Source of the DNA: Polyangia bacterium | GTDB taxonomy: Bacteria > Myxococcota_A > Polyangia > Palsa-1104 > JAEUJZ01 | DNA: 64,000 nucleotides | Assembly (NCBI GenBank): GCA_046351615.1 | Contig: JAXLYF010000011.1 | Location: forward strand, 10,882-74,881 | Direction: 5' to 3' | The notes under the pieces: generated by a model | Told to the model about the DNA's origin: nothing | The model's input: only the letters and a program-made list of their open reading frames with translations | Databases searched by the model: none | In this document: one piece after another, positions 11,408 to 62,658 of the stretch | How positions within the stretch are numbered: position 1 is the first letter of the stretch | Layout of the letters: every line of letters begins with the position of its first letter | Translations under genes and position numbers: made by a program

Positions 11408-11417
11408 TGAGGTCGCC

Positions 11418-30438: not shown

Positions 30439-30607
30439 GTACGTAAACTCCGAACCAGCCAAGTGAAAGTGGGCGCATCCTAGCAGCCGCTCGAAGGTGT
30501 GTAAACGCGCTCGTACCGGCGAAATCAAGACGGGCTGTGGCGCGGAATGCGGCGGAATTTGGCAGAACGTGGGCGAATTGGGCCAAAAAGGCCGATTTTT
30601 GCGGGGC

Positions 30608-31465
30608 TTACTTGAGCGGAATCGTCAGGCCAAGCTGTAGGCTGGCGGGCATAACGCTGATGGGGAAGCAGACCTCGCCGTCGAGCTTGTCGCAGTCGGA
30701 TCGGCGGGACAGCACGATGGGCGTGACGATGGCGGCGGCGACTCCGCTGGCTCCGACGGCGGCGAGCGTCCACACCCACCAGCGGGAATACCAGCGCTTT
30801 TCGGTCTTGAAGACGGCTTCTTCGCGGCGCTTTTGCTCGGGCTGGATTTCGAGGATGAGGTCGCGATCGTACTGCTCTCCAGCGACGGTGGCGACGCTCC
30901 AGGTCTGCTCGAAGTAGCCGATGCGACGGACGCGAACGACGTGGGGACCGGGACGTAGCTCTAGCTCTAGCGGGGTTTCGCCTCGAAGATCTTCGTCGAC
31001 AAAGACCTGAGCGCCGGGGACATCGCTCGATACCTTGAGGATGGCGAGCAGCGGCGTAAGCTCCACCTCGACGGCAACCATGCGGCCTTCGATCGCGGTA
31101 AAATCGGAGCTGAAGGTCGAATAGCCTCGGCGGCTGATCACGATCTGGTGCGGTCCGGGCGCGAGCGCGGTGCGAGGCGGGAGCGGGGTGATTCCGATCA
31201 GCTTTCCGTCGATGCGAACCTCTGCTTTGGGGGGCGCACCAAGGAGCGCAAACGCGGTCTCGTTTTGCTTGGCTTCGCTTGGGACGGGCGCACCAGATCG
31301 GGTCGCAGGCTGATCGGCAGCGACGGGAGCGGGCGCACCAGACTGGGCCCAGACGGGCAGCGCGGGCACAAGCAGCGTCAGTGCACAGGCGACAGCGAGT
31401 CCGGTTCGGTGGGAAAACCGCCAGCGATCGTGCGTCCGTTCGGAGCGACCCATGCGTGCGGGCAT
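30608..31465 (-). CDS. PEGA-domain protein with signal peptide and C-terminal TM anchor
   Basis: Two PEGA-like modules (EVRIDGKLIGITP...GPHQIVISRRGY and QVFVDEDLRGETP...GPHVVRVRRIGY); signal LAVACALTLLVPALPVWAQ; C-terminal TM WWVWTLAAVGASGVAAAIV. Confidence 0.7.
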   Translation of the reverse strand: MPARMGRSERTHDRWRFSHRTGLAVACALTLLVPALPVWAQSGAPAPVAADQPATRSGAPVPSEAKQNETAFALLGAPPKAEVRIDGKLIGITPLPPRTALAPGPHQIVISRRGYSTFSSDFTAIEGRMVAVEVELTPLLAILKVSSDVPGAQVFVDEDLRGETPLELELRPGPHVVRVRRIGYFEQTWSVATVAGEQYDRDLILEIQPEQKRREEAVFKTEKRWYSRWWVWTLAAVGASGVAAAIVTPIVLSRRSDCDKLDGEVCFPISVMPASLQLGLTIPLK

Positions 31466-35200: not shown

Positions 35201-35771
35201 AGCGGACGCGAAGGGAGACGGAGCGAAGCTTCCTGAAGGAAAGGGAGCAGAGGGCGGGAAGCTTCCAGAAGGAAAGGGAGCAGAGGGCGGGAAGCTTCCA
35301 GAAGGAAAGGGAGCAGAGGGCGGGAAGCTTCCAGAAGGAAAGGGAGCAGAGGGCGGGAAACTTCCAGAAGGAAAGGGAGCAGAGGGCGGGAAGCTTCCAG
35401 AAGGAAAGGGAGCAGAGGGCGGGAAGCTTCCTGAAGGAAAGGGAGCAGAGGGCGGGAAGCTTCCTGAAGGAAAGGGAGCAGAGGGCGGGAAGCTGCCGGG
35501 ACGCAGTCAGCCTGCTCCGGCTGGCGGACAGCCAGGAGGTGCTCCAGCGGGTGATGCGAAGAGCGCGGCTCAGCCTGTTCCGTCAGCACCGGGAAATGCG
35601 CCTGCGGGTCGGGATAACGGCGGAATTCTGTCGAATGCGGGCAAGGCGGGTGGGGCGGCTCCAGCAGGAGGCACAGCGGCGGGCGGCAAGTCGTCGGCAG
35701 CCGGTGGCAGCGCCAAGGATGCGGCCAAGAAGACCGATCCGCTCAGCAAGCGTCCAGTGTGGAAACCGTAA
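32232..35771 (+). CDS. Giant (1179 aa) Ala/Lys/Val/Gln-rich alpha-helical repeat protein with highly repetitive Gly/Asp/Lys-rich C-terminus; unknown function
   Basis: First ~800 aa of 11-mer-like amphipathic helix sequence (KVAADAKTALSEAKTAVEKAKSDVKQAVEKVKKVV...); no signal peptide; C-terminus: 20-aa repeats ADAKGDGKADAKADAKADGAKDGAPG x3, 25-aa repeats DAKGDGLPGADAKGDGAKLPEGKGA x4, 11-aa repeats AEGGKLPEGKG x8. Confidence 0.75.
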   Translation: MDVNQQLASVRSDVDKVSKKTIDELNKVAAEGLQTVQNVAAGVEKVQGKVAADAKTALSEAKTAVEKAKSDVKQAVEKVKKVVDNAQQSVQKTAASGALGVIGKIQGAVTKITGAISSYKDTIVNAIDKVKSTVAGVVGPLIDKAKAALANIEARLRQLVEMAMAAFADIKAKVEKVIADVSTCFEVLSTAGPAAFEHAKQAIAAAKEAAQAASKRDFLLAKNRAEDAQKAAMSAVSEGQQCFDAIKRLIGGLAVAADGLSSSLKRHLEAAQSAAKEALAATREDVTGVVSQAKAGAAEIRGAVDAGVSEISTATQATAQKISQIVTVTASAAAKQAVDTARSIVSEIESTAGELRGIALETMSKVSETAHQLDVPGPSVDDLQKTVTDAMSQQDDARTKLQKIQQLQGKLAGLSWAELGPVGQEVQAEVNKIVGAGQRTLDSARSFAGSVKSTVTQLGSDVTTAITQRVDQWKGVGESAQKLFNETKDKVKKHVDEIKAEIDSIIKDAQKCVDELKKSVEDLVQSVKDGIEKAKNLDVSGAMDVVVKAKNLFETGKRHWDTMRGHFEKMKAHVLSVKDTVDGVVGQAGDVIEQAKGAFQSTIDAPKEVAGLVKSASEKLLGDANQTMATAQAEFKTAMAGASKLLDLASCTSSSTVQMGISAASSLAQSAVNAGKSAMAAGQGVMATAMSAVGVFDENARKQAAKACDSAMDAAKSALKAVEDAAKATDKVASGDAAGAQQAAAQVEQKAADAAGQAAKAQKEASAAEQNAKQAAADSTNPDAVEKKQQEKKGEAGAKKDGAQADAKKDGAKAGDEKKDAADSKGAGDEKKDAAGDGKADAKADGAKDGAPGADAKGDGKADAKADAKADGAKDGAPGADAKGDGKADAKADAKADGAKDGAPGADAKGDGLPGADAKGDGAKLPEGKGADAKGDGLPGADAKGDGAKLPEGKGADAKGDGLPGADAKGDGAKLPEGKGADAKGDGLPGADAKGDGAKLPEGKGAEGGKLPEGKGAEGGKLPEGKGAEGGKLPEGKGAEGGKLPEGKGAEGGKLPEGKGAEGGKLPEGKGAEGGKLPEGKGAEGGKLPGRSQPAPAGGQPGGAPAGDAKSAAQPVPSAPGNAPAGRDNGGILSNAGKAGGAAPAGGTAAGGKSSAAGGSAKDAAKKTDPLSKRPVWKP
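34738..35500 (+). repeat. In-frame coding tandem repeats: 60-bp units (x3), 75-bp units (x4), then 33-bp units gaaggaaagggagcagagggcgggaagcttcca (x8-9)
   Basis: Direct reading of DNA 34738-35500; produces long antisense shadow ORFs (34387..35589, 34432..35979). Confidence 0.85.
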
Positions 35772-35845
35772 GGCTTCATCGTCGAGGAACATCGCCGCAG
35801 ATGTGGCACGAGTGGTTCATATCGGACGGAGCGAGGGAGGGCTAG

Positions 35846-36922
35846 ATGCGCTGGCTGCTGAAAGCCTCTGCCGAGGGTCTGTCGCTAGAGCCTGCACCGA
35901 GCTTCGGGAACGCGGCAGATGTCGAGCTGCTGCTGCGTCGGTTTTCGACCAACCGGGCGGCGATGCAGACGCTGCGTGAGGCGGTGCGTACCGTCGATGC
36001 GGCGGTGCAGACGCTGCTTCTGCGTGATGAGGAGATCATTCGCGTGGCGGCGGCTCTGATCGTCGCTGGACGGCTGACGTTGGTTCCTCCGCAGCCTGCG
36101 CCGCTGTTCCCGGTCTTCTACTACAAGGGTGGGGCAAAGGAAGACGAGGGAGAGGAATCGCAGCCAGAGAGCAGCAAGCCCGCCGACAGCAGCAACGATA
36201 CGGCCAAGGTTCCGATCGAGTGGGAGCTGGTGTTTTCAGACGGACCGGCGGTCAAGGGCTTTGTCTCGATGTTCGAGGGGCCCGATGGAAAGCCCCAAAA
36301 GGAGCTGAAGCCCGACGGAAACGGTCATCACAAGCTGGATGACTTTTGGCGACATGATCCGTATGCCGTCACGCTGGTTGGCACTGTCGAGGTGAGCGGA
36401 AAGCTGGAAGATGCCGATGGAAAAGGCATCAAGGACGCGAAGATCACCGTCGAGCCCGTGTATGGCGATGCGGTGATTGCAACCACCGACGGTGGCGGTA
36501 CGTTCAAGGTCAAAGGCTTTGTCGAAGAAGAAGAGTTCGATGTCTTCATCACGGCGGGTGGTGTCGCGATCGAAGGGAAGCTGCAAGACGAGGACGGAAA
36601 AGCCGTAGCGGGTGCGTCGCTGTTGCTGCTGCTGGATGGTGGATCACTCGTATCAGTGGAAACTGGCAAAGATGGAACCTTCACGGTGCCCGGTCGCCTG
36701 CCGGGCGAAGGCTTTTCCGTCGAGGTGGTGGGCGTCAATCCCGGGTTTTCTGCCGAGGGTCAGTTTGTCGATGAAGAGGGCAAGCCGATCGCGGGAGCCA
36801 GTGCGCGGCTTCTGTTCGATGGCGGGCTGACTGTGACGGTTGCCAGCGATGGAGATGGCAAGTTCAAAGTGCCAGGTCTTCTGCCGCAAGAAGGCTATTC
36901 GCTGGAGTTTCTGAGTCGCTAG
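35846..36922 (+). CDS. Protein with three tandem CarboxypepD_reg-like (carboxypeptidase regulatory-like, beta-sandwich) repeats and an unknown ~110-aa N-terminal domain
   Basis: Repeats: VSGKLEDADGKGIKDAKITVEPVYGDAVIATTDGGGTFKVKGF; IEGKLQDEDGKAVAGASLLLLLDGGSLVSVETGKDGTFTVPG; AEGQFVDEEGKPIAGASARLLFDGGLTVTVASDGDGKFKVPG; acidic linker EDEGEESQPESSKPADSS. Confidence 0.65.
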   Translation: MRWLLKASAEGLSLEPAPSFGNAADVELLLRRFSTNRAAMQTLREAVRTVDAAVQTLLLRDEEIIRVAAALIVAGRLTLVPPQPAPLFPVFYYKGGAKEDEGEESQPESSKPADSSNDTAKVPIEWELVFSDGPAVKGFVSMFEGPDGKPQKELKPDGNGHHKLDDFWRHDPYAVTLVGTVEVSGKLEDADGKGIKDAKITVEPVYGDAVIATTDGGGTFKVKGFVEEEEFDVFITAGGVAIEGKLQDEDGKAVAGASLLLLLDGGSLVSVETGKDGTFTVPGRLPGEGFSVEVVGVNPGFSAEGQFVDEEGKPIAGASARLLFDGGLTVTVASDGDGKFKVPGLLPQEGYSLEFLSR

Positions 36923-36987: not shown

Positions 36988-37293
36988 GCGGCAGGCTGTG
37001 GTCCGTTTGGGAGTCTGCTTGGGAGTCCGCGTCAGAAGTGCGCAGGAGGCCCTGTGATGAGCCCAGTTGTGCGTCCAGTTGTGCGTCGTTTTGGGGGCTT
37101 ATCATTCGCTGCATGCGGGTGAGAGATCCTTCTTCAATGGACGGCCATGAAGGCTGCGGTGACACCCTGTAGGAATCGGGCGCACCGTCGCGCAGGCGGA
37201 TTGTGAGTACAGTTCTCAACTGCATCGCGAACGCAAACAATCTTGCGCGCATAGCGTCCGCTTCCCGCTTCCATACACTCGGTACATGGCGCT

Positions 37294-37299
37294 ATAATG
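37294..37299 (+). promoter_or_regulatory. TATAAT hexamer ~25-35 bp upstream of the likely tssJ start; candidate -10 element for the T6SS operon
   Basis: ggcgcTATAATgtgacc; weak -35 TTCCAT 18 bp upstream. Confidence 0.2.
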
Positions 37300-37322
37300 T
37301 GACCTTGGGGGAGCAACTCGAA

Positions 37323-37784
37323 GTGCTTGTTGTGTGGCTCAGCCAGGGCGGACAGAGAGCGACCAAGGGACTGCTTCTGCTGGTCGTCCTTTTGTCCTGT
37401 CTGTGCGGAGGCTGTGCAAGTCATCCGTGGAAGATGCAGATGACGATCGCCACCGACGCAAACAACAACTCTCCGGTGCTGATTTCCGTGGTGCTTCCCA
37501 AGAGCCAACCGCTGTTTAAAAAGCTGCTGGATATGACGGCGAAGCAGTGGTTTACGCAGCGGGAACAGCTGCTGCGCGATCATCGGCGAGAGCTGGAAGA
37601 GACGTACTTTGAGTTCATTCCGGGACAGCAAGTTCCCGAGATCAATCGCAAAGTTTCGAGCAGTGTGAGCCAAGGGATTCTGTTTGTGAACTACCAGACT
37701 CCGGGATCGCATCGCTATACCTTCGACACAAACCAGGCGCTCAAGATCAGCTTTGCTCAGCAGAGTGTGAACTTGAGCCAGTAA
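37323..37784 (+). CDS. tssJ: Type VI secretion lipoprotein TssJ (SciN/VasD family)
   Basis: Lipoprotein signal KGLLLLVVLLSCLCGGCAS then TIATDANNNSPVLISVVLPKSQPLFKKLLDMTAKQWF, matching TssJ pattern (LNpd..gr.sPv.vrvYqLks...F..ADF); the ORF track begins at ATG 37203 but a 45-aa pre-signal extension is unlikely, so start placed at in-frame GTG 37323 (or 37332). Confidence 0.6.
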   Translation: MLVVWLSQGGQRATKGLLLLVVLLSCLCGGCASHPWKMQMTIATDANNNSPVLISVVLPKSQPLFKKLLDMTAKQWFTQREQLLRDHRRELEETYFEFIPGQQVPEINRKVSSSVSQGILFVNYQTPGSHRYTFDTNQALKISFAQQSVNLSQ

Positions 37785-37802: not shown

Positions 37803-39143
37803 ATGCCGAGCGCGCATGATCTTCCTCCGCAGATTCAGTGGCACGAAGGAATGCTGCTGGCTCCGCAGCACTTTCAGCAGATGGTGCAGCGGACGGAAAA
37901 GCTTCTTCACTACCATGTGAGTCTGGGGCTTCCGTATCAGTTTGGCGTGACGCGGCTGCGCTATGAATCGACGCAGCTTTTTACGGGAACGCTGCGTGTT
38001 ACAGAGCTGGAAGCGGTGCTTCCCGATGGCTTGGTGGTGTCGTTTAAGACCGGCCCCGCGGCAGAGCTGCAAGTGGATCTGAAAGCGCATGCAGAGAGCG
38101 CGAAGCATTCCCCGATTCCTGTCTACTTGGTGGTGCCGATTGAGCGGACTGGAGGCAGCAAAGGGGAAGGGGATCTGGGTCGGTTTCTGTCGATTCCCGG
38201 TGATGAGGTCGATGACGAGGTCAGTGGTGGGCGTCCGCTGCGGATTCCGCGACTGAAGCCTCGGCTGCGGCTGATTGCGGGGACAGAGTCTCCTCCTCCT
38301 CGCTTTGTGGCGCTGCCGCTGCTTGCGGTGGTCTACAAAAACGGCGCGTTTGTTCCTGCGGACTACATTCCGCCGCTGATTCGCGTGGAAGTGGACTCTC
38401 CGCTGGGTGAGCTGTGTGCGCAGGTGAGCAGTCTGATTCGGGCCAAAGCGACGTATCTGCTGGAAGTGATTCGGTCTCCGGCGATTACGACCAAGCCACA
38501 AGCGATTGAAGAAAATCGCAGGCTGCTTTCACAGCTGGTGCTGAATCTTCCGCCGTTTGAAGCGCTGCTGGCGACGGGAACGAGTCACCCCTATTCGCTG
38601 TATGTTGCGCTGACTGCGGTGGCCGGAAGCGTGGCAGGAGTCGGCAATCAGCTGATGCCTCCGGTCTTTCCTGCGTACGATCACTTGAACCTGCGGCGAT
38701 CGTTTGCGGAGGTTGTTCAGTTTGTGAATCAGTCGCTCAGCGACGGAATTTCTGAAGCGTTTACGGCGCTTCCGTTCCGCAATGAAAACAACCTGTTCGC
38801 ACTTCAGTTTGAAAGGGAGTGGACGCGTCGCACGGTGGTGATGGGCTTCAAGGGGGCTCCAGGGGCCACGGATCAGCAGATCACAGAGTGGGTGACGAGC
38901 AGTCTGATCGGAACCGCAAGTCGCTTCAAAGTGCTGCGTGAGCGACGACTGCTGGGGGCCACACGAACTCCTATTGATCGAGTCGAAGGTCTGGTGGCCA
39001 CGCGCGGAATGCTGCTGTTTCAGCTTCAGCTCAACCCAGAGTTTATTGTGCCGAGCGAGCCGCTGGTGATCGGAAACTCTGTGGAAAAACCACCGGGCAT
39101 TCGTCCGGCAGAGGCCTACTTATATGTTGCAAACAAAGAGTAG
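37803..39143 (+). CDS. tssK: Type VI secretion baseplate protein TssK
   Basis: N-terminus IQWHEGMLLAPQHFQQ (TssK signature W.EGM.L.PQHFQQ), 446 aa. Confidence 0.9.
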   Translation: MPSAHDLPPQIQWHEGMLLAPQHFQQMVQRTEKLLHYHVSLGLPYQFGVTRLRYESTQLFTGTLRVTELEAVLPDGLVVSFKTGPAAELQVDLKAHAESAKHSPIPVYLVVPIERTGGSKGEGDLGRFLSIPGDEVDDEVSGGRPLRIPRLKPRLRLIAGTESPPPRFVALPLLAVVYKNGAFVPADYIPPLIRVEVDSPLGELCAQVSSLIRAKATYLLEVIRSPAITTKPQAIEENRRLLSQLVLNLPPFEALLATGTSHPYSLYVALTAVAGSVAGVGNQLMPPVFPAYDHLNLRRSFAEVVQFVNQSLSDGISEAFTALPFRNENNLFALQFEREWTRRTVVMGFKGAPGATDQQITEWVTSSLIGTASRFKVLRERRLLGATRTPIDRVEGLVATRGMLLFQLQLNPEFIVPSEPLVIGNSVEKPPGIRPAEAYLYVANKE

Positions 39144-39202: not shown

Positions 39203-40111
39203 ATGGCGAGTGAGTCCTCTGATCAGCTGTTCTTGGTGGACTACTTCCGCGAGTTCTACGCGGCGGTCCTGCATCACCGCATGCAGATCGAGCGCTCGCA
39301 GCTTCCACCCGCCGAAGAGGACAGCATTGAGATTCGCGAAGCCGACATCTTGGCCGAAGAAAAGATACCGGGTGCGGAGCAGTCACAGATTGCGCCCGAC
39401 ATTGTGCAGGCGCTCCTGATTGAGCTGATGGAGTCCCAACAGCAAGCAATTCAGCGACGGGGAGATCCGCGCGAACAGAAGCGATTTCGAGACATTCAGT
39501 ACGTGATGTCCGCGATGGCTGATGAAGTCATGCTGAGCATCGAGTGGATCGGAAAAGAGTACTGGAGCACGCATCTATTGGAAGAGCGGCTGTATGGTAC
39601 GCACGATGCGGGTACGCGCTTTTTCGACAACCTGGACTCTCTGCTTCAGAACAGAGACGCAACGCGCGCGGATGTGCTTGCGGTGTATCTGCTCGCAGTG
39701 TCACTGGGATTCCGTGGCAAGCATCGCAGCGTAAACAGTGCGGCGCAGATTGCGCACTATCGAAACCAAGCCTACGTCACGCTGTTTCAGCGCAGTCCGG
39801 CGCTACCAGAAAGCGCTCCGCTGTTTCCGCAAGCGTACGCGCACACGCTCGATGGACAGACACCAAGCTGGCTGCCACAGCTTCGTCCGTGGCTACTATC
39901 ACTGGTCGGCGTTGCGGTGTTCTATCTGCTGGTTGCGCATGTGATCTGGGATCGGCGCTCGACCTCGGTTGGGAATCGCTTGGAAGAGATTCTGCAACAC
40001 AAAGACAGCCCAGACGTAAACACACCGGCGCGCTCTGTGAACAGCTCTATGGAGCCGAAAGCAGAAGCCGCTACTGCAACGGCGAGCAGTGTAACCGTTC
40101 GAAAGAACTAG
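39203..40111 (+). CDS. tssL: Type VI secretion membrane protein TssL (DotU/IcmH family), no peptidoglycan-binding extension
   Basis: DotU-like core with LAVSLGFRGKHR (cf. LGF.G.Y motif) and single C-terminal TM PWLLSLVGVAVFYLLVAHVIW. Confidence 0.8.
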   Translation: MASESSDQLFLVDYFREFYAAVLHHRMQIERSQLPPAEEDSIEIREADILAEEKIPGAEQSQIAPDIVQALLIELMESQQQAIQRRGDPREQKRFRDIQYVMSAMADEVMLSIEWIGKEYWSTHLLEERLYGTHDAGTRFFDNLDSLLQNRDATRADVLAVYLLAVSLGFRGKHRSVNSAAQIAHYRNQAYVTLFQRSPALPESAPLFPQAYAHTLDGQTPSWLPQLRPWLLSLVGVAVFYLLVAHVIWDRRSTSVGNRLEEILQHKDSPDVNTPARSVNSSMEPKAEAATATASSVTVRKN

Positions 40112-40178: not shown

Positions 40179-41267
40179 GTGACAGGTTGTGATGGGGGAA
40201 CTGTGCCAAACCGTGTGCTTGGCTGGCTGATACTCTGTGTATCGGTACTGCTGCTGTGTTCAGCGCCAGCGCTTTGTCAGGAAGAGAGTGCCGCAACCTA
40301 TGAAGAGGAGGGCGCACGGCTGTTCCTGAGCAAGAGCTATGAGGGTGCGATCAAGCAGTTTACCCAAGCGTATCGACTCGATCCGAAGCCGCAGTATCTG
40401 TTTAACATCGGTCAGTCCTATCGGAAGCTGGGTCTGGCTGCGGAAGCGACAGAGTACTATCAGCGCTATCTGCACGATGAACAGAAGGTGGATCCAACCA
40501 TCTACGCAGATCTGACGACGTACATCGATCAGTACTACGCATCGCAAGAGCGTGGTGGGAGTCGTCCCAAGTCCAAGAGTGAAGCCGCAGAGCCTGCGCC
40601 GATGCTGGCCGCAGAGGAAATCGCCGATGCGGAAGAGCTGATTGCGCAGTTTGTTCGGGACTACCGAGCGGGCAATCAAGCGGTGGCCAATGAGATCATG
40701 GATCAGCTCAAGCAAGTGCTGCTGGTCCGTGGCGATCCGATCCTGATGTATCACATCGCGAACGGATACGATCAGGTCAAGAAGCGCAAGGAAGCCCTGG
40801 AATACTATCGTCGCTTCGTTGCGGTAGAGACTGCGGACCCTCGTCTTCGTCGTCGATCATTTGAACGGATTGCCCTTCTTACGCCTGCGCCGCCTGGTCA
40901 GAAGTATCTGTGGCCGAGCTTGGCGCTGGCGATTCCGGGACTTGCGGGTGTGCTGACCGGAGTGGCCCTTGCGGTTCAATCCGGGGACAACTTCCAGCAG
41001 TTCCTCAATGAAGCAGATGAACAGAAGAAGCGGGAACTCCGCGACAAAGGAGTCGGTCTGTCTATCGGATCGGTGACCTCCTATGCCATCGGTGGTGCCC
41101 TACTGGCCGGCGCAGGTGCGTTTGCGATTGTTGCCCTTAAAAAGGGAGTCCGTCAAAACGCGGAAGAGAAACGGACGGAACCCTCGCGCACAACGAAAAG
41201 CACCCTGACCGGATCGCTTCTGCCGCTGCCTGGCGGCGTGGGTCTGTCCTTGGGAGGGAATTTCTAA
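40179..41267 (+). CDS. TPR-repeat protein with signal peptide and two C-terminal TM helices, inserted between tssL and tssM
   Basis: TPR-like AIKQFTQAYRLDPKPQYLFNIGQSYRKLGLAAEATEYYQRYL; hydrophobic LWPSLALAIPGLAGVLTGVALAV and IGGALLAGAGAFAIVAL. Confidence 0.65.
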   Translation: MTGCDGGTVPNRVLGWLILCVSVLLLCSAPALCQEESAATYEEEGARLFLSKSYEGAIKQFTQAYRLDPKPQYLFNIGQSYRKLGLAAEATEYYQRYLHDEQKVDPTIYADLTTYIDQYYASQERGGSRPKSKSEAAEPAPMLAAEEIADAEELIAQFVRDYRAGNQAVANEIMDQLKQVLLVRGDPILMYHIANGYDQVKKRKEALEYYRRFVAVETADPRLRRRSFERIALLTPAPPGQKYLWPSLALAIPGLAGVLTGVALAVQSGDNFQQFLNEADEQKKRELRDKGVGLSIGSVTSYAIGGALLAGAGAFAIVALKKGVRQNAEEKRTEPSRTTKSTLTGSLLPLPGGVGLSLGGNF

Positions 41268-42715
41268 TGCTTAAGACTTCGCTTCTGTCTGCATTCCTAT
41301 CGGTGGGGCTGCTGGCCAGCACGGGCTGTACGCTGACCATGAACTATCAGCAGTGTAGCCAAGACAGCGACTGTACGGCGGCGGATGGAACGCCGGGCTA
41401 TTGCTCGTCGGATCAGCTCTGTCTGCCGAACACTCCGCTTGAGAGTCTGTGTACGATTACGATTCCTGATGCACCGTCTCCCAATGCGGTTCATCTGGGT
41501 GCGCTGCTGGATCTGCGTGACAAAAACGGACGACTGACCGAAGCGCATCGACTGCTCGCGCTGAAGCTGGGTGTCAAGCAGATTAACGATCTGGTGCAGC
41601 TGGATGGATCGCGTCCGCTGGCGATTGATGTCTGCAACGTGGGCGTGTCTGCGATCGACGCTGACAATGCGACCAAGATCCTGATCGAACAGCGCAATGT
41701 CGTGGCGATCATCGGACCGAACACGGCGTCCGCTGCGACCAACATGATCGGTCGAATCAAAGCGGCTGGCGTTCCCACGATCTCGCCTGCGATCATGGAC
41801 AGCGGAATTGCTGATGCAGCAAGTCAGGGTCTGTTTTATCGCTTGGCTCCCGTCGAAAGAGAGCAAGGCCTTCAGCTGGTTCGTGAGCTGGTGACGCTGT
41901 CTGGCGGAAAGAGCACCGCGCAGCTTGGACTTCTGTCTGTCACCGATTCCTATGGTGAAAACATTCGTCGCAAGTTCACTCCTGAGTGGCAGCGCCGTGA
42001 TCCGATCAACAACAAGACGGATCGATTCATTTCGTACAAAGACAACGATGCAAACCTGCTGAGCGTTACGACCAAGACGCTGCTTGATGCGAAGCCGAGC
42101 TTCGTGGTGCTGATTCCGGGATCGAACAGTCATCTGGTGGTGGGAGGTTTTGCGGATCTTCCGTTTGATCCGAAGAACCCCGGCTCCTTCGAGAGCACGA
42201 CCCAGGTGCTGGCTTCTTCCAGTGCGCGGACCGGAGACTTGATCAGGATGGCGCGGACCGGAGAAGACAAGATGAAGAATCATCTGTCGCGCATCACCGG
42301 AGTCGCTCCGCTGAGCTTTATTGATAGTCAAGAAGGCGCAGATTTTAAGTCGAGCTTCACGGCCACAAATCCGGGTCTGGCGCTCGAAGATGACTTCATG
42401 GTGGGCTACACCTACGACGCGCTGTTTGTGCTGGGTGCGGCCTCTGCTACGTTCAAGGGAGCGAGCCGACCGGATCAAATCCTGTCTGTTCTGCGACGCC
42501 TCAATGGCAACGCCAACTCGCTGTCTTTGACGCCGCGACTGTTCAACGAAACGGTTCAGAAGCTGGCACAGCAGCCGACCGATCCGTTCACTCTGCTTGG
42601 TGTTACAGGTGCGATTCGCTTCCAGACAGATGGCAGCCGAGATCCGGTTCTGCTCGAGCGCTGGAAGATCGATATCACCACCGGAGCGTACGTAAACACT
42701 CCGGCCAACATGTAA
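41267..42715 (+). CDS. Lipoprotein with periplasmic-binding-protein type I (LIVBP/ANF-receptor-like) fold, inside the T6SS locus
   Basis: Lipobox LLASTGCT; HLGALLDLRDKNGRL...GVKQINDL...VVAIIGPNTASAATNMIGRIKAAGVPTISP resembles Leu/Ile/Val-binding protein family N-lobe. Confidence 0.6.
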   Translation: MLKTSLLSAFLSVGLLASTGCTLTMNYQQCSQDSDCTAADGTPGYCSSDQLCLPNTPLESLCTITIPDAPSPNAVHLGALLDLRDKNGRLTEAHRLLALKLGVKQINDLVQLDGSRPLAIDVCNVGVSAIDADNATKILIEQRNVVAIIGPNTASAATNMIGRIKAAGVPTISPAIMDSGIADAASQGLFYRLAPVEREQGLQLVRELVTLSGGKSTAQLGLLSVTDSYGENIRRKFTPEWQRRDPINNKTDRFISYKDNDANLLSVTTKTLLDAKPSFVVLIPGSNSHLVVGGFADLPFDPKNPGSFESTTQVLASSSARTGDLIRMARTGEDKMKNHLSRITGVAPLSFIDSQEGADFKSSFTATNPGLALEDDFMVGYTYDALFVLGAASATFKGASRPDQILSVLRRLNGNANSLSLTPRLFNETVQKLAQQPTDPFTLLGVTGAIRFQTDGSRDPVLLERWKIDITTGAYVNTPANM

Positions 42716-42739: not shown

Positions 42740-45700
42740 GTGCTGATACGCATTGGCATAGCTGTTCTTTTATTGGCGGTCATCGCCGTCGGTGTCTTTT
42801 TCATCTTGCGAATGCGTCGCAAGAAGAAAGAGCAGGCCGAGGCTCCGCCGCCTCCGCCCAAAGATCCGCAGAAAGCCAAGCGGCTGGCAGAGCTGCGGAC
42901 GAGCTTGAATGCGCTGGTTGCGGAAGAGCTCAAGCAGCTCGATCAGAATGTGGGCGGAATGCCCGGACGCTATTCGATGCCGTGGTGTCTGGTGCTGAGT
43001 GAAAAAGGAGCGGGACAGAGTACGGTCCTACAGAACACCGGACTTCACATTCCGTTCCGTGGTGCGAGTGATCAGCTGGCAGAGTCCGCACACTGTCGAT
43101 TCTGGTTTTATGACAAAGGGGTTGCGATCGATCTAGGCGCGGAGGTGTGGCAAGAAGAGGAGGCCTTTGTTCACTTCTGTCATCTGCTGCGTGCGGCGCG
43201 TCCGAAGCGTCCGGTGGACTCTGTTCTGGTGCTGGTTGCGGCTGAAACTCTCGTCGGTGATGACAAGCAGAGTGAAGACAAGATCAAGGCGCAGAGTGAG
43301 CTTTTGTATCAGCGACTGCTGCGCTTTCAGCAAGAGATCTCGCTGCGTCTTCCCACCTACGTGATGATCAGCAAGAGCGATACGATTCCCGGCTTTACGG
43401 CGTTCTGCGGGGGTCTGTCTACGCATCAGCGCGAGCAGCTCGCGGGCTGGTCGTCTCCCTATCCGCTCAACATTTCGTATAACACGACCTGGGTCGATCA
43501 AGCGTTTGCAGAGCTGTACAAGACGCAGTGCGGTCTTCAGCTGGATCTGTTGGCGAGCGCAAAGCTGTCGGACAAAGAACAGGATCTGGCATTCCTTCTG
43601 CCGCGCAACACCCAAGCGCTGCGCGATCCGATGAAGCTGTATCTGGATCAGCTATTCCGGGTGAGCGTCTACAGTGAGTCGAACCTTCTGCGCGGCGTGT
43701 ACATGTGTGGAGACGCCACGATCGCCAGCGCGATGGTGCAAAAGTCTGAAGAGTCGGAAGGACTGAAGCATCCGGTCTTCATTCATGATCTGTTTGCGAA
43801 GAAGCTGTTTCCTGAAAGTGGACTGGCCAAGCCACTGAAGAAGGGAATGCTGAATCAGCAGCGTGCGCTGCGGCTGGTTCGGGTTGCGCTGGGTGCGTCG
43901 GTGCTGGTGAGCGTTCTGCTGCTGTGGACGGCGTACGCAAACCTAAGCCGTGATGTCCGCGCGGTGATGGGATTCCTAGACAAAGTTCCGGTCGGAAGCA
44001 CGCTGTCGGTTGCGCAAGACAGAGACCGCTTCGCGCAGCAGACCCAGGAGCTTCTGTCCGCGATTGGCAACGTCGCCAACAGTCGTCTGTTCAGCGTTCG
44101 GCTGCCGTCCTCGTGGCTTAGCTCGCTGGATGATGATGTTCAGGAAGCGATGCGACGCTCGTTTGAGCGCGTGGTGCTGGGCGGACTGTATGAAGGTCTG
44201 GCGCTGAAAGCCAAGCAGGTGTTGGGACTGGAAGGAGACCTGGCTGCGCCGCCACCCAGCGACGAGCCGCCTCCGGCTGGAGAGCCCGGATCAGGACGTC
44301 CCGCAGCCGCAGCAGAGCGTCTGACTTCGCGGACGGTTCAGATTCAGTCGCTTCAGAACATGCCGGAGTATCAAGAGCTGCGTGATCTGTCGCGCGCGTA
44401 TCTGGAGTTTGTTCAAAACGTCGATACCTACAATCGCTTGGGCGCGGATCATCACAAGCGCTTCGATACGGTGGTTCCGCTGGTGAAGTACGTGTTTGGC
44501 GTCGAGCTTCAGCCGATCTTTTTGCGCAATGCAGAGCTGTATCAGGAAGCGCTCGCCAATGCGACCAGTCGTTCCTTTGACATGGGACTGGTGAATCCGA
44601 AGGTACAAGCGCGAGCACGAACGATCTGCAAAGCGCTGCATCGACGGCTGTTTATCGACAACGCGATTGCGATCGAAACAGAAGAGATCTTGGCGCACGT
44701 CAGTCGCTTAAAAGCAGAGAGTGAAGGCGGCGGTGCGGACCTTCCGGTGCTGACCGAGCTGCGCGATGTTCTGTTGCGTCTGGAGCGTGATCTGGGTCGT
44801 CCAGAGCTTCAGTGGATGTCGAAGGACGCTCTGGAGCTGGGTGATCCGATGGCGGAAGTGCTGGCGTCACTTCGTCACTTTTCACCAGATGGACGGATGA
44901 GCGATGAGCTGCGTCAGGAGTGGCAGCAGTCGCATCAGCAGCTTCGGCGCAGGCTGCTGGAAGTTCAGCTTCCGGCGATGGGACTCATCCTTGTTCGTGA
45001 CAACGAAAAGCATCGCTTGGCGATGACGCAAGGTGTGGTGGAGCTGAAGGCGAACCTGGAGACGTTCCTCTCGCTTGCGTTTGTGCAGCAGAACCTGGAA
45101 AAGCCGCATGCCCAGAACTCGGAAGGTTCCTATCGCGTGGTCTGGAATGATGATCTGCTGCGTCAGTCCACTGCATTTGCGGATGCCTACGATGCGTATG
45201 TCCGCGATCGCTTGGGACAGATGTATCGCCACATCCGCGAAGTCGTAAAGAGCACTGCGCTGGAGCGACTGGGACAGAACATGCCTGCGCTGGTGGGACA
45301 AGCGCGAAGGGAAGAGCGCGTCCTGCGCTTTAGTGGCGATGTGAATGCGCTGCAAGATGAGCTAAGCAGTGAGGTCGGAGATCTGAAGCGCGTATCAACG
45401 GTGCTGCGCCAGATTCTGGAGACCTATGATCGCTTGACGCTCAAGGCTGCACATGCCGAGCTGTATCAGCAGCTGCAGGAAGACTCACGCGAGATCTTGC
45501 GCCGCATCGATCTGCTTCCAGAGCGCGAAGAGATGTATCGCGTGTCGAGCAAGCTGGCGAGCTGGCGCGGAGAGAAGCCTCCGGTCTTGGCTGCCTTTGA
45601 TGTGGAAGATGCCGATGCGCTGTCGCAGTACATCAAGACGCAGCGCAATCGCATCAAGGGCTGGGGTCGTGATTATGCCAAGGTTCCGGTGTCTCTGCTG

Positions 45701-46843
45701 GACGGTCTGACAAGCGCGCGCAGCGACGATCCGCTGCTTGGGAAGTGGCGCAACATCGTCAATCAGCTGGAGTACTTTGAGCGGATGACTCCGGGTAACT
45801 CGGTGAAGGAAATGGAGTCGTTCTTTGACACCACGCTCATCACCGTGACGCCGGAAAACTGTCTGGACAAGCTGCCGAAACAGACCGGAGACAACACCGA
45901 CTTTTTCTTGCAAGCGAAGGCGCGGGTGCATGACTCCGTTCGCAAGCGCTGCTTGGTGTTCGCGGCAGAAAAGATCTTGGAGATGTATGAACACCTGGCG
46001 CGGCGCTTCAACCAAGACCTCGCAGGGAAGTTCCCGTTTACGCGCAATGCGCAGTCGCTGGATGATCCCGATGCGATTCCGCGCGACATTCGCGGCTTCT
46101 TCCAAGAGTACGACGAGTTCATCCGTCAGTACGATGCCTACGTCGGTCGGCGCGAGACGATTGGCGGATCGGGGGAAGTGGGACGTGAGGTGAATAACTT
46201 CCTTCAGTCCCTGCGTGAGGTCCGTCCGTTCTTTGCGCCCCTGCTTGGAGATCGCGGAGATCTCGCGCGCTACAACGTGTCGATCGATTACCGCATCAAC
46301 AAGAGCAACGAGATAAACGGTCAGCAGATCGCAGAGTGGGGTTTTGCAACGGGCGATCAGAAGGTCGAAGACGGACAGGGATTTTGGCAGCTTGGCGATC
46401 GGGTGCGTCTGTCGATGCGCTGGGCCAAAGATGGTCCGTATGTTCCGGCTCCTACCGGACAGCCGCGTGGTGCTTCGGTGGACTCGAACGACACCATCTC
46501 CTTTGACTTCGCGGGCATCTGGGGTTTGGTGCGAATCATTCGCATGTTCCGGGCCTCGCCGATTGATCTGCGCAAGTCGCTGGATCGGCAGCCGCATGTC
46601 CTGAAGTTCATGGTCGATATCACAGAGCGAAAGCACACCGGGCGCGTGCGACTTTTGCCGGATTCCTACTACACCAACAAGGGAAACACGCCGAGCGGAG
46701 CGGCCAAGATGTCGTTTCTTTACAACAAGGCGGTGGTGTTTGTGCGTGTGATCATAAACCCACCAGAGAGCAAGGACTTGCTGGTGATTCCCGTCGACTG
46801 GCCGACCCTGGCACCGCTGACACGCGGGCGGAATGGACAGTGA
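42740..46843 (+). CDS. tssM: Type VI secretion membrane subunit TssM (IcmF family), 1367 aa
   Basis: N-terminal TM IGIAVLLLAVIAVGVFFIL, P-loop region MPWCLVLSEKGAGQSTVLQ (Walker A with Gln in place of the usual Lys), size and position between tssL and tssA. Confidence 0.85.
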   Translation: MLIRIGIAVLLLAVIAVGVFFILRMRRKKKEQAEAPPPPPKDPQKAKRLAELRTSLNALVAEELKQLDQNVGGMPGRYSMPWCLVLSEKGAGQSTVLQNTGLHIPFRGASDQLAESAHCRFWFYDKGVAIDLGAEVWQEEEAFVHFCHLLRAARPKRPVDSVLVLVAAETLVGDDKQSEDKIKAQSELLYQRLLRFQQEISLRLPTYVMISKSDTIPGFTAFCGGLSTHQREQLAGWSSPYPLNISYNTTWVDQAFAELYKTQCGLQLDLLASAKLSDKEQDLAFLLPRNTQALRDPMKLYLDQLFRVSVYSESNLLRGVYMCGDATIASAMVQKSEESEGLKHPVFIHDLFAKKLFPESGLAKPLKKGMLNQQRALRLVRVALGASVLVSVLLLWTAYANLSRDVRAVMGFLDKVPVGSTLSVAQDRDRFAQQTQELLSAIGNVANSRLFSVRLPSSWLSSLDDDVQEAMRRSFERVVLGGLYEGLALKAKQVLGLEGDLAAPPPSDEPPPAGEPGSGRPAAAAERLTSRTVQIQSLQNMPEYQELRDLSRAYLEFVQNVDTYNRLGADHHKRFDTVVPLVKYVFGVELQPIFLRNAELYQEALANATSRSFDMGLVNPKVQARARTICKALHRRLFIDNAIAIETEEILAHVSRLKAESEGGGADLPVLTELRDVLLRLERDLGRPELQWMSKDALELGDPMAEVLASLRHFSPDGRMSDELRQEWQQSHQQLRRRLLEVQLPAMGLILVRDNEKHRLAMTQGVVELKANLETFLSLAFVQQNLEKPHAQNSEGSYRVVWNDDLLRQSTAFADAYDAYVRDRLGQMYRHIREVVKSTALERLGQNMPALVGQARREERVLRFSGDVNALQDELSSEVGDLKRVSTVLRQILETYDRLTLKAAHAELYQQLQEDSREILRRIDLLPEREEMYRVSSKLASWRGEKPPVLAAFDVEDADALSQYIKTQRNRIKGWGRDYAKVPVSLLDGLTSARSDDPLLGKWRNIVNQLEYFERMTPGNSVKEMESFFDTTLITVTPENCLDKLPKQTGDNTDFFLQAKARVHDSVRKRCLVFAAEKILEMYEHLARRFNQDLAGKFPFTRNAQSLDDPDAIPRDIRGFFQEYDEFIRQYDAYVGRRETIGGSGEVGREVNNFLQSLREVRPFFAPLLGDRGDLARYNVSIDYRINKSNEINGQQIAEWGFATGDQKVEDGQGFWQLGDRVRLSMRWAKDGPYVPAPTGQPRGASVDSNDTISFDFAGIWGLVRIIRMFRASPIDLRKSLDRQPHVLKFMVDITERKHTGRVRLLPDSYYTNKGNTPSGAAKMSFLYNKAVVFVRVIINPPESKDLLVIPVDWPTLAPLTRGRNGQ

Positions 46844-46852
46844 GGATGCGCG

Positions 46853-47971
46853 ATGTCTGAGATGCCACCGATTGATCTGGAATCGCTACTACAGCCGATC
46901 TCGGAGCGCGAGCCGTCCGGGGAGTGGCTGCGCTATGAGGGAACGTATGATGCGCTGACAGAAGCGCGTCGCGAAGAAGACGACAGCCTTCCGCAAGGTG
47001 TCTGGCAGATCAAGGTCAAGCGTGCGGATTTTGCGAAGGTTTCGCAACTTGGCCAAAAAGCGCTGCGTGAGCGAAGCAAAGATCTTCAGATCGCGGTCTG
47101 GCTGTGTGAAGCCTGGCTGAAGCTGCATGGCGTGCCCGGAATGACGCTGGGAATTCAGCTCTGTACGCAGCTTTTGTCGCGCTTTTGGCCTTCTCTGTAT
47201 CCGCTGGTGGAAGAAGGGGATGCATCGTATCGGATGGCTCCGCTGGAGCTTCTGTCGAGCAAGATCTCGGTGCGTCTCAAAGAGATTTCTCTGACGGAGC
47301 CGTACGGTGAAAAGTCGGCGCTGTCTTGGATCGACTGGGAGCGTGCGCTGCGCAATGAAAAGGCTTCCAGCGCAGGCGATGAGATCGTGCCAGCCGTGTT
47401 CTTGGCCGCTGCGGCAAACACAAGTGGTCGATTCTATTCAGCGCTGTACACAGAGCTGACTGCGCTGGATGATGCAGCGCGTGCGCTGGAAGATCTGGTG
47501 GTTGAAAAGCTTCCCGATCAGCCAGCGATCTTGCGAGTGCTTCGCAACTTGGTCCGCGATATCCAGGCCTTGATTGCGCAGTACACCCCAGCGCCCGCAG
47601 CCCAGGTTGTGCCTGAGCCAGTGGCCCAGGATGGCAGCCGCAGCGACGGTGAAACAGACCTTGGTGAGCCTTCGGAGGCCGCGATGCATGGCGATGGATC
47701 ATCGGCAGGTCGCTCCAGTGCCCGGGGCGATGCCCGAGGTGAAGATGTTCCAAATGGCCCGATCCGTAGTCGGGTTCAAGCATATCAACGACTTGTAGAA
47801 GCGGCTGAATACCTTCAGCGCACAGAGCCTCACAGTCCGGTGCCGTACCTTGTGAAGCGGGCCGTGGCTTGGGGTAACATGGACCTGATCCAACTTCTTG
47901 GTGAGCTAGTAGCCGAGGGGGGAGATCGCCAGACGATCTATGCGCTGCTGGGGGTAAAGGGGCCGCAGTAG
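46853..47971 (+). CDS. tssA: Type VI secretion protein TssA (ImpA_N domain)
   Basis: ImpA_N signature LLQPISEREPSGEWLRYEGTYDALTEARRE; precedes tssBC. Confidence 0.8.
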   Translation: MSEMPPIDLESLLQPISEREPSGEWLRYEGTYDALTEARREEDDSLPQGVWQIKVKRADFAKVSQLGQKALRERSKDLQIAVWLCEAWLKLHGVPGMTLGIQLCTQLLSRFWPSLYPLVEEGDASYRMAPLELLSSKISVRLKEISLTEPYGEKSALSWIDWERALRNEKASSAGDEIVPAVFLAAAANTSGRFYSALYTELTALDDAARALEDLVVEKLPDQPAILRVLRNLVRDIQALIAQYTPAPAAQVVPEPVAQDGSRSDGETDLGEPSEAAMHGDGSSAGRSSARGDARGEDVPNGPIRSRVQAYQRLVEAAEYLQRTEPHSPVPYLVKRAVAWGNMDLIQLLGELVAEGGDRQTIYALLGVKGPQ

Positions 47972-57665: not shown

Positions 57666-57674
57666 GGAGCGAAG

Positions 57675-58547: not shown

Positions 58548-58625
58548 TGACTGGGTACGGTGTGGGATGGGGTGGGGGACTTGTAGTAGGTAGTGATTCC
58601 TAGACTGGCTTAGTGAGGGGGGAAC

Positions 58626-62642: not shown

Positions 62643-62658
62643 CGGTAAGGAGAGCCTT

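What the first reader, a model, noticed from the sequence alone, without database searches (positions are those of the whole stretch)
40179..42715. Two non-canonical genes inserted between tssL and tssM: a TPR membrane protein and a LIVBP-like periplasmic-binding lipoprotein
tssL and tssM are usually adjacent. Here they are separated by a signal-peptide/TPR/2-TM protein and a 482-aa lipoprotein with a type-I periplasmic binding fold, sharing a stop/start overlap. TssL here lacks a peptidoglycan-binding extension. These may be new accessory (Tag) components anchoring or regulating the membrane complex, possibly sensing a periplasmic ligand.
Basis: partly seen in the sequence, partly recalled or inferred. 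Interest (0 to 1): 0.6.

Follow-up and report, generated by a model that had tools for sequence, protein, structure and literature searches.

The report
Sensor-type envelope cassette inside T6SS operon
Between tssL and tssM of a type VI secretion operon from an uncultured myxobacterium sit two translationally coupled envelope genes, and because their closest paralogues lie next to membrane Ser/Thr kinases, they are probably a periplasmic input or adaptor module for the secretion machine, not transport genes.

Summary
ORFs 40179-41267 (signal peptide, two TPR blocks, TM hairpin) and 41267-42715 (lipoprotein, Cys-rich N-terminus, LivJ-type binding fold) lie between tssL and tssM. They overlap by one base (TAATG).

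The window is an uncultured Myxococcales/Polyangia MAG. The same insert occurs in every related T6SS locus recovered, down to 30% PBP identity and about 45% TssM identity. In L016 tssJ-K-L are inverted, yet TPR-PBP-tssM stay together. Two loci, nested among PBP-bearing ones, keep only the TPR gene. Outgroup loci with the same divergent TssM type have tssL-tssM adjacent. dN/dS of both genes (0.06-0.11) matches TssL and TssM.

The new point is ancestry. The same two-gene cassette, with the same overlap, TM hairpin and C-terminal aromatic tail, occurs outside T6SS directly beside membrane Ser/Thr kinases.

The most likely reading is a receptor or adaptor module co-opted once by this T6SS lineage and acting on TssM, functionally like TslA/TagM1. 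A purely structural brace is not excluded. The T6SS-linked PBPs have lost the SPSAT ligand motif that the kinase-linked paralogues keep, so small-molecule sensing is uncertain. I rate it a new variant of a known kind, of moderate interest.

The parts
37203..37784 (+). Small lipoprotein in the TssJ position (193-aa ORF; the real start is probably internal, before the LLLLVVLLSC lipobox-like stretch)
   Evidence: No Pfam or NCBIfam family. One hydrophobic segment at 52-76. Conserved before tssK in all three locus types, including outgroups L018 and L021 at 27-32% identity. The PBP lipoprotein is therefore not a TssJ substitute.
37803..39143 (+). TssK
   Evidence: PF05936 E 1e-42; TIGR03353 221 bits
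39203..40111 (+). TssL (DotU), short form without a peptidoglycan-binding domain
   Evidence: PF09850 E 3e-29 is the only domain. TM at 226-250 and a low-complexity tail.
40179..41267 (+). Accessory protein 1: signal peptide, two periplasmic TPR blocks, TM hairpin with a conserved loop of about 30 aa, and a conserved C-terminal beta-hairpin ending GGNF (likely start 40203)
   Evidence: Homologous partners occur in T6SS-linked, kinase-linked and PBP-less loci.
41267..42715 (+). Accessory protein 2: lipoprotein with an N-terminal disulfide-rich module and a type I (LivJ/HAAT-like) periplasmic-binding fold, translationally coupled to accessory protein 1
42740..46843 (+). TssM of a divergent subtype: two TMs (1-27, 376-402); only the cytoplasmic IcmF-related_N domain is recognised; about 960 periplasmic residues have no Pfam match
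   Evidence: Always immediately downstream of the cassette.
46853..47971 (+). TssA
   Evidence: TIGR03363 278 bits
48073..56033 (+). Rest of the operon: TssB, TssC, Hcp, TssE, TssF, TssG, VgrG

Best explanation
The two genes form one translationally coupled envelope cassette. One product is an inner-membrane-anchored protein whose TPR domain faces the periplasm. The other is a lipoprotein with a Venus-flytrap (LivJ-type) fold. The cassette belongs to a Myxococcota family whose other members are wired to membrane Ser/Thr kinases. One copy was captured once between tssL and tssM of a T6SS with a divergent TssM, and it has been inherited with tssM since.

The most likely function is a periplasmic input or adaptor module of the TssJ-L-M membrane complex. 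The lipoprotein would be the sensing or contact head. The TPR/TM protein would be the adaptor that binds TssM (or TssL) in the membrane and periplasm and licenses when or where the complex assembles. That is functionally like TslA/TagM1, with no kinase step.

**Shown here:** gene anatomy, predicted folds and topology elements, operon coupling, conservation with tssM, purifying selection, a single gain with one PBP loss, and the kinase-linked paralogues.

**Inferred:** physical contact with TssM, a regulatory rather than structural role, and the nature of the signal.
For: 1. **Same gene order.** tssJ-like, K, L, TPR, PBP, M, A, B, C, Hcp is found wherever the contig is long enough, in 21 PBP-bearing loci, with PBP identity from 100% down to 30%.
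2. **Linkage to tssM.** In L016 tssJ-K-L lie on the opposite strand while TPR-PBP-tssM-tssA stay collinear. In L017 the TPR gene abuts tssM with no tssL nearby.
3. **Accessory, not core.** Outgroup loci with the same TssM subtype (27% identity; L018 from Thermoanaerobaculia, and L021) have tssL-tssM adjacent and still carry the TssJ-position lipoprotein.
4. **Selection.** dN/dS is 0.06-0.11 for TPR and 0.056-0.11 for PBP, against 0.06-0.10 for TssL, 0.05-0.10 for TssM and 0.13-0.20 for TssA.
5. **Translational coupling.** The one-base TAATG overlap with an internal GGAGG recurs in the gene calls of L001, L003, L016, L022, L023, L024 and L105.
6. **Paralogous cassettes outside T6SS.** They share the TM hairpin and the C-terminal ...GG/GA-F/Y tail. 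A Pkinase-TM-PEGA kinase lies directly upstream in L026-L030, directly downstream in L022 (which also has a PP2C phosphatase upstream), and about 3 kb upstream in L024.
7. **Separate clades.** T6SS-linked and kinase-linked PBPs fall in separate halves of the PBP tree.
8. **No transporter or kinase partners.** No ABC permease or ATPase, Fha, PpkA or TagF was found in any ORF scanned of the T6SS cluster and its surroundings.
9. **Precedent.** TslA/TagM1 are periplasmic TPR proteins encoded in T6SS clusters. TslA is reported to bind TssM, and these proteins direct contact-dependent assembly (PMC9251886).
Against: - No interaction, expression or phenotype data exist. All carriers are uncultured MAGs.
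- The lobe-I SPSAT motif is conserved in the kinase-linked paralogues. From my own knowledge it corresponds to the alpha-amino-acid-binding Thr of LivJ and mGluR. In the T6SS clade it is degenerate and variable (SPAIMDS, SPALSDT, SPSAIAG, SPSVTGL, TPDVTDT). That fits a protein-protein role as well as it fits ligand sensing.
- One sublineage (L017, L019) lost the PBP and kept the TPR gene, so the PBP is dispensable for whatever the TPR protein does.
- The kinase-linked examples come from only about three independent lineages.
- The positive-inside rule does not fit the predicted topology well.
Confidence: 0.5

Rival explanations
1. Purely structural accessory. The TPR/TM protein and the lipoprotein are stoichiometric braces of this divergent membrane complex, for example an IM-to-OM strut compensating for the unusual TssM periplasmic domain and for the absent PG-binding TssL extension. 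No signal is involved.
For: - Selection strength equals that of TssL and TssM.
- The position next to tssM is strictly conserved.
- The TssM periplasmic region lacks the canonical Pfam domains.
- The ligand motif is degenerate in the T6SS clade.
- The lipoprotein could reach the outer membrane. Its +2 residue is an invariant Thr, not Lys. That Lys at +2 is the inner-membrane retention signal in Myxococcus is from my own knowledge.
Against: - Outgroup loci with the same TssM subtype and the same TssJ-position lipoprotein work without either gene.
- The PBP was lost in one lineage.
- The cassette's paralogues accompany signalling kinases, not machines.
- No TssM segment is specific to cassette-bearing loci except at the extreme N-terminus, which is truncated in the outgroup sequences used.
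Confidence: 0.3
2. Cell-wall adaptor. The TPR plus PBP-fold pair acts like a split LpoA/NlpI-type adaptor. It recruits or regulates a peptidoglycan synthase or hydrolase so that the T6SS can cross the sacculus.
For: - T6SSs need local PG remodelling. TagX is cited as an example in PMC6612558.
- The L022 paralogue lies near SPOR, YkuD and FtsA-like genes.
Against: - No LppC (PF04348) hit appears even at E 10.
- No PG enzyme is encoded in the T6SS cluster.
- The other paralogue loci show kinases, not wall enzymes.
Confidence: 0.1
3. Passenger genes. An ABC-transporter substrate-binding protein and an unrelated TPR protein were carried into the operon by chance.
For: The sources that name these proteins call them 'ABC-type branched-chain amino acid transport system substrate-binding protein'.
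Against: - No permease or ATPase genes were found among the ORFs scanned, or in the precomputed gene tables, of the loci examined.
- The position is conserved over deep divergence and survives rearrangement.
- dN/dS is like that of the core genes.
- The proteins form a dedicated lipoprotein clade with a Cys-rich N-terminus.
Confidence: 0.03

Closest known systems
TslA / TagM1 (Acinetobacter, Burkholderia subtype i4b T6SS; PMC9251886)
   Same: A Sec-exported periplasmic protein with a TPR-like domain, encoded in the T6SS cluster upstream of tssBC on the same strand. TslA is reported to interact with TssM. It is accessory rather than core. It evolves faster than the sheath genes.
   Different: - TslA is soluble or a lipoprotein with a disordered C-terminus and pI above 8.7. 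This protein has a TM hairpin, a conserved C-terminal beta-hairpin and pI 6.8-7.0.
- TslA has no partner binding-protein gene.
- The T6SS subtype differs, given the divergent TssM.
- Sequence homology could not be tested.
TagQRST-PpkA-PppA-Fha1 threonine-phosphorylation pathway of the P. aeruginosa H1-T6SS (own knowledge)
   Same: Periplasmic and lipoprotein accessory proteins feed envelope information to T6SS assembly. The cassette's paralogues are wired to a Ser/Thr kinase, and in L022 also to a PP2C phosphatase.
   Different: No kinase, Fha or PP2C lies in the T6SS cluster here. The proteins are unrelated in fold, since TagR is not a type I PBP. Coupling would have to be direct.
LivJ/HAAT-family substrate-binding proteins and ANF/mGluR-type receptor domains
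   Different: - 11-17% identity only.
- Lipidated, with an extra Cys-rich N-terminal module.
- No ABC transporter partner.
- SPSAT-type motif not conserved.
Binding-protein-dependent receptors (LuxP-LuxQ, TorT-TorS, ChvE-VirA; own knowledge)
   Same: A free periplasmic binding protein that docks on a membrane signalling protein. This is the logic suggested by the STK-TPR/TM-PBP loci.
   Different: The outputs there are histidine kinases. Here the output would be a eukaryotic-like kinase (paralogues) or TssM (this locus), through an extra TPR/TM adaptor.
TagL / TagN / TagP and extended TssL (peptidoglycan anchors)
   Same: Accessory envelope proteins encoded next to tssL and tssM.
   Different: Neither protein has an OmpA-like or PG-binding domain.

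Membership tests
Type I periplasmic binding protein (Peripla_BP_6 / LivJ-HAAT cluster) | Sequence match above the curated Pfam threshold | tested here: met
   PF13458 41.4 bits against cut-off 31.7; PF01094 29.4 bits against 25.4
Type I periplasmic binding protein (Peripla_BP_6 / LivJ-HAAT cluster) | Two alpha/beta lobes joined by a hinge (Venus-flytrap fold) | tested here: met
Type I periplasmic binding protein (Peripla_BP_6 / LivJ-HAAT cluster) | Works with an adjacent ABC permease and ATPase | tested here: not met
   No transporter genes were found among the ORFs scanned of the window, or in the precomputed gene tables of any related locus examined.
Type I periplasmic binding protein (Peripla_BP_6 / LivJ-HAAT cluster) | Conserved lobe-I ligand motif (G-P-x-S/T-S ... 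S-P-S-A-T) | tested here: not met
   The window has GPNTASA ... SPAIMDS, and the motif varies across the T6SS clade. The kinase-linked paralogues keep SPSAT.
TslA-like proteins (operational criteria of PMC9251886) | [quoted passage not shown] | tested here: met
   40179-41267 on the + strand; tssB at 48073 on the + strand
TslA-like proteins (operational criteria of PMC9251886) | N-terminal signal peptide or lipoprotein signal | tested here: met
   Hydrophobic segment 8-35 followed by AxA-type sites in homologues
TslA-like proteins (operational criteria of PMC9251886) | TPR domain | tested here: met
   TPR_2 E 1e-9; two TPR blocks in the AF2 model
TslA-like proteins (operational criteria of PMC9251886) | High pI (above 8.7) | tested here: not met
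   pI 6.8 for the full protein, 7.0 for the mature protein, 5.4 for the TPR domain
TslA-like proteins (operational criteria of PMC9251886) | Found in subtype i4b T6SS; sequence relationship to ACIAD2693 or BTH_I2965 | not testable with these tools
TssM is far from canonical TssM (TIGR03348 164 bits against cut-off 388, N-terminal part only).
TssJ | Small outer-membrane lipoprotein encoded with tssK-L-M | tested here: not met
   The PBP is 482 aa with a different fold. A separate small lipoprotein occupies the TssJ position in all locus types.
TagL/TagN/TagP peptidoglycan anchors | OmpA-like or PG-binding domain | tested here: not met
   No such domain in TssL, the TPR protein or the PBP, even at E 10 for the PBP
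LpoA (LppC family) | Match to PF04348, or LpoA as the nearest structural neighbour | tested here: not met
T6SS threonine-phosphorylation pathway (PpkA/PppA/Fha/TagQRST) | Kinase, phosphatase and FHA protein in the T6SS cluster | tested here: not met
   None between 35846 and 63477. A PP2C-cNMP protein lies 35 kb away at 607-1944.

The most novel reading that the evidence does not exclude
A kinase-free, receptor-gated T6SS. A Venus-flytrap lipoprotein and its TPR/TM adaptor were co-opted from a myxobacterial three-gene receptor-kinase module (STK, TPR/TM, PBP). They bind TssM directly and license membrane-complex assembly in response to a periplasmic cue such as a prey- or kin-derived molecule or envelope contact. 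This would be a new way of coupling an extracytoplasmic receptor to a secretion machine. It would also reveal an undescribed class of binding-protein-dependent Ser/Thr receptor kinases in Myxococcota.
Probability: 0.3. Interest if true: 0.75.

Novelty: new variant of a known kind. Interest (0 to 1): 0.55.

Why it matters
How T6SSs decide when and where to assemble is known for only a few proteobacterial models (TagQRST-PpkA, TslA-OmpA). This locus gives a sequence-defined candidate for a different solution in predatory myxobacteria. It is a binding-protein plus TPR-adaptor cassette, whose sister copies are plugged into Ser/Thr kinases, placed directly in front of tssM.

It also shows two further things:
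- There is a sizeable uncharacterised Myxococcota family of Cys-rich PBP lipoproteins, with 49 clusters (at 50% identity) at E up to 1e-30, each paired with a TPR/TM partner.
- A TssM subtype exists whose periplasmic part is unlike the EAEC paradigm.

All carriers are uncultured. The value is therefore a testable hypothesis, with constructs to synthesise, rather than an established mechanism.

Tried and rejected
- **PBP as TssJ replacement:** rejected. A separate TssJ-position lipoprotein is conserved even where the cassette is absent.
- **ABC importer component:** rejected. No permease or ATPase was found in any locus examined.
- **PG anchor:** rejected. No OmpA or PG-binding domains.
- **LpoA homology:** only generic fold similarity.
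- **Stepwise gain (TPR first, PBP later):** suggested by the first TssM tree. Overturned once L023 and L105 were added. The TPR-only loci nest inside a PBP-bearing clade in all 50 bootstrap replicates, so the PBP was lost.
- **TssM segments specific to cassette-bearing loci:** none found beyond the N-terminal end, which is truncated in the outgroup sequences.
- **Similarity between the kinases' periplasmic PEGA region and TssM, TssL or TssJ:** none.
- **TPR model against PDB:** only generic TPR hits, and the model's low pTM (0.34) makes them uninformative.
- **Metagenome scan with a 16-sequence alignment:** failed because no stretch was conserved enough. It was repeated with 5 sequences. Most of the 80 loci returned were generic PBPs. 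Only L025-L033 belong to the family.
- **afdb50 fold search:** unavailable.
- **Literature searches:** no description found of a TPR or PBP accessory pair in T6SS, or of the STK-TPR-PBP module.
Full report
**What is there**

On the + strand the window carries a complete T6SS operon. In order it encodes:
- a small lipoprotein in the TssJ position (37203-37784);
- TssK (37803-39143);
- TssL (39203-40111);
- the two genes of the finding (40179-41267 and 41267-42715);
- TssM (42740-46843);
- TssA, TssB, TssC, Hcp, TssE, TssF, TssG and VgrG.

Intergenic gaps are 67, -1, 24 and 9 nt. No terminator-like site above chance falls between the genes. The window is 100% identical to a contig of an uncultured Myxococcales MAG (CALMML010000122.1). 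All close relatives are Myxococcales or Polyangia MAGs, two of them labelled 'Pseudomonadota bacterium' by their depositors.

**Gene 1 (362 aa)**

The protein has, in order:
- a cleavable-type signal sequence;
- two TPR blocks (38-125 and 145-234), joined by a linker with a conserved EPAPLLAAEE...DAEEL motif;
- a conserved PAPPGQKYLWP stretch;
- two hydrophobic helices (244-268 and 301-321) forming a hairpin around a conserved loop of about 30 residues;
- a KKGVRQ motif, a variable stretch, and a conserved C-terminal beta-hairpin ending GGNF.

The likely true start is GTG 40203.

**Gene 2 (482 aa)**

The protein has an invariant lipobox cysteine (C21), a disulfide-rich N-terminal module (C30, C36, C46, C52 and C62 invariant, plus C123) and a type I periplasmic-binding fold.
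- Pfam Peripla_BP_6 and ANF_receptor both score above threshold.
- AF2 gives pLDDT 77.5 and pTM 0.73.

The genes overlap as TAATG, with a GGAGG eight bases upstream. TssL has no PG-binding domain.

**Is the insert conserved?**

Yes. Every locus that encodes an orthologue of the PBP has the same gene order wherever the contig is long enough. This holds for 21 loci with PBP identity from 100% down to 30%.

| Locus type | Loci | TssM identity to window | Arrangement |
|---|---|---|---|
| Close relatives | L007-L011, L014 | 84-94% | J-K-L-TPR-PBP-M-A-B |
| More distant, same order | L001, L003, L015 | 65-66% | J-K-L-TPR-PBP-M-A-B |
| Still more distant, same order (PBP 34% and 30% identical) | L023, L105 | not computed | (J)-K-L-TPR-PBP-M-A-B |
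| J-K-L inverted | L016 | 48% | TPR-PBP-M-A stay collinear |
| TPR only | L017, L019 | 43-46% | TPR directly before tssM, no PBP |
| Outgroup (L018 Thermoanaerobaculia; L021) | L018, L021 | 27% | tssL-tssM adjacent, TssJ-position lipoprotein kept, ClpV after TssG |

A bootstrapped TssM tree nests the TPR-only loci with the PBP-bearing L023 and L105 in all 50 replicates. The cassette was therefore gained once as a pair, and the PBP was lost once.

dN/dS against five close relatives is 0.06-0.11 for both genes. That is the same as for TssL and TssM and lower than for TssA.

**Where does the cassette come from?**

An exhaustive profile search with the PBP finds a wider family. It has 49 clusters (at 50% identity) at E up to 1e-30 and 362 at E up to 1e-10. 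Most members are 450-510 aa, and many share the lipobox and the Cys-rich N-terminus.

Contexts of members outside the T6SS clade show the same two-gene unit. A shorter TPR protein carries the same proline-rich linker, TM hairpin, D/E-x-x-DKR loop and C-terminal ...LLPxPxGG..L..GAF/Y tail. A PBP lipoprotein follows it, overlapping by one base in L022 and L024 and overlapping or abutting within a few bases in the others.

In these loci the neighbour is a membrane Ser/Thr kinase, built as kinase domain, one TM and a periplasmic PEGA domain:
- directly upstream in L026, L027, L028, L029 and L030;
- directly downstream in L022, where a PP2C phosphatase and a beta-helix protein lie upstream;
- about 3 kb upstream in L024, next to a TPR gene fragment.

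These loci represent about three independent lineages. In a PBP tree the T6SS-linked and kinase-linked proteins fall into separate halves. The T6SS version of the TPR protein has a duplicated TPR block.

**How it probably works**

The facts that bear on mechanism are these:
- Both proteins face the periplasm, and one is anchored in the inner membrane by a hairpin with a conserved short loop.
- They are made in coupled fashion.
- They track tssM rather than tssL.
- The base machine (TssJ-like, L, M) exists without them in outgroups.
- Their sister cassettes accompany signalling kinases whose own periplasmic part is only a small PEGA domain.

The best-supported reading is a receptor or adaptor module. 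In the paralogues it feeds a kinase. Here it feeds the T6SS membrane complex directly, through TssM and possibly TssL, and so controls when or where the complex assembles.

The closest functional precedent is TslA/TagM1. These are periplasmic TPR proteins of i4b T6SSs. TslA is reported to interact with TssM, and these proteins direct assembly to cell-cell contacts (PMC9251886). The TPR protein here meets three of that paper's four operational criteria and fails the pI criterion. It also differs in having a TM hairpin and a PBP partner. I therefore do not file it as a TslA family member.

**What weakens the ligand-sensor version**

Alignment to S. pneumoniae LivJ (4gnr) and to mGluR5 identifies the lobe-I motifs. 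The kinase-linked paralogues keep a canonical SPSAT(S/A)P even at 22-30% identity. The T6SS clade shows SPAIMDS, SPALSDT, SPSAIAG, SPSVTGL and TPDVTDT. From my own knowledge, the Thr of this motif contacts the alpha-amino-acid moiety in LivJ and mGluRs. The T6SS-linked PBP may thus bind something else, or only proteins. The loss of the PBP in the L017/L019 lineage shows that the TPR protein is the less dispensable half.

**Rivals**

- A purely structural brace (0.3) fits the selection strength and the odd TssM. It fits less well with the dispensability in outgroups and the kinase-linked ancestry.
- An LpoA-like cell-wall adaptor (0.1) rests only on a generic fold resemblance.
- Passenger transport genes (0.03) are essentially excluded.

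**Comparison with the literature**

The genome-wide T6SS survey of Boyer et al. lists no TPR or binding-protein accessory (PMC2660368). The Burkholderia T6SS-1 Tag set (TagF, M, N, X, Y) contains nothing of this fold (PMC6612558). Searches for myxobacterial T6SS or kinase papers found no description of either module.

**Verdict**

This is a real, conserved, lineage-specific accessory cassette of a divergent myxobacterial T6SS. It is a new variant of the known theme of periplasmic accessory proteins that modulate the membrane complex, with an informative and apparently undescribed link to binding-protein-associated Ser/Thr kinases. The mechanism remains inferred. Interest 0.55.

Noticed in passing
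L022:7278-13191; L028:5358-9356; L026, L027, L029, L030: A three-gene module recurs in Myxococcota metagenome contigs. It comprises a membrane Ser/Thr kinase (kinase, TM, PEGA), a TPR/TM-hairpin protein and a Cys-rich PBP lipoprotein. In L022 a PP2C phosphatase is also present. It looks like a binding-protein-dependent receptor kinase, and I found no description of it.
   Followed up: partly
window 42740-46843: The TssM belongs to a subtype with only two TM segments (1-27, 376-402). Its periplasmic part of about 960 aa matches none of the canonical TssM periplasmic Pfam domains (PF06744, PF06761, PF21070). The same subtype occurs in Thermoanaerobaculia (L018). The Walker A-like site reads GAGQST.
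   Followed up: partly
window 1-64000: No ClpV/TssH gene lies anywhere in the 64-kb window (tblastn with the L018 ClpV). In the outgroup loci L018 and L021, ClpV follows tssG. Here VgrG follows tssG.
   Followed up: partly
window 40179-41267, C-terminus 342-362; also L022, L024, L017, L019: The extreme C-terminus of the TPR/TM protein is a conserved beta-hairpin ending Gly-Gly-x-Phe/Tyr. It is kept in T6SS-linked, kinase-linked and PBP-less versions. It resembles an OMP beta-signal or a PDZ-binding tail. Its role is unexplained. The predicted topology also sits badly with the positive-inside rule.
   Followed up: no
window 32232-36922: Two genes lie directly upstream of the T6SS. One is a 1179-aa low-complexity, coiled-coil-like protein in a stretch with extreme AT skew (0.25-0.45) and GC skew. 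The other is a 358-aa protein with three CarboxypepD_reg repeats. Both are conserved upstream of the T6SS in L008 and L009 (65-81% identity) but not in more distant loci. They could be surface or effector-related cargo.
   Followed up: no
window 56035-63477: Downstream of VgrG lie a MORN-repeat protein (414 aa), a 290-aa protein with no family, a 1338-aa protein with MopE-type metal-binding motifs and a Sel1-repeat protein. They are candidates for an effector, adaptor and immunity set.
   Followed up: no
window 26479-26756 (- strand): Two short tblastn matches to the N-terminal part of a Ser/Thr kinase lie in different reading frames. This may be a degraded kinase gene or an assembly frameshift. 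An OmpA/TSP3 protein (28531-30528) and a PEGA protein (30608-31465) lie nearby on the same strand. L007 has a kinase fragment and an OmpA gene in the equivalent place.
   Followed up: no
window 6737-15503: Two very large tandem VIT-VWA proteins (1556 and 1422 aa ORFs). The first has C-terminal TPRs. They are unrelated to the finding.
   Followed up: no
window 37203-37784: The TssJ-position lipoprotein has no Pfam or NCBIfam match, yet it is conserved down to 27% identity in Thermoanaerobaculia-type loci. It is probably a divergent TssJ. Its structure was not modelled.
   Followed up: partly
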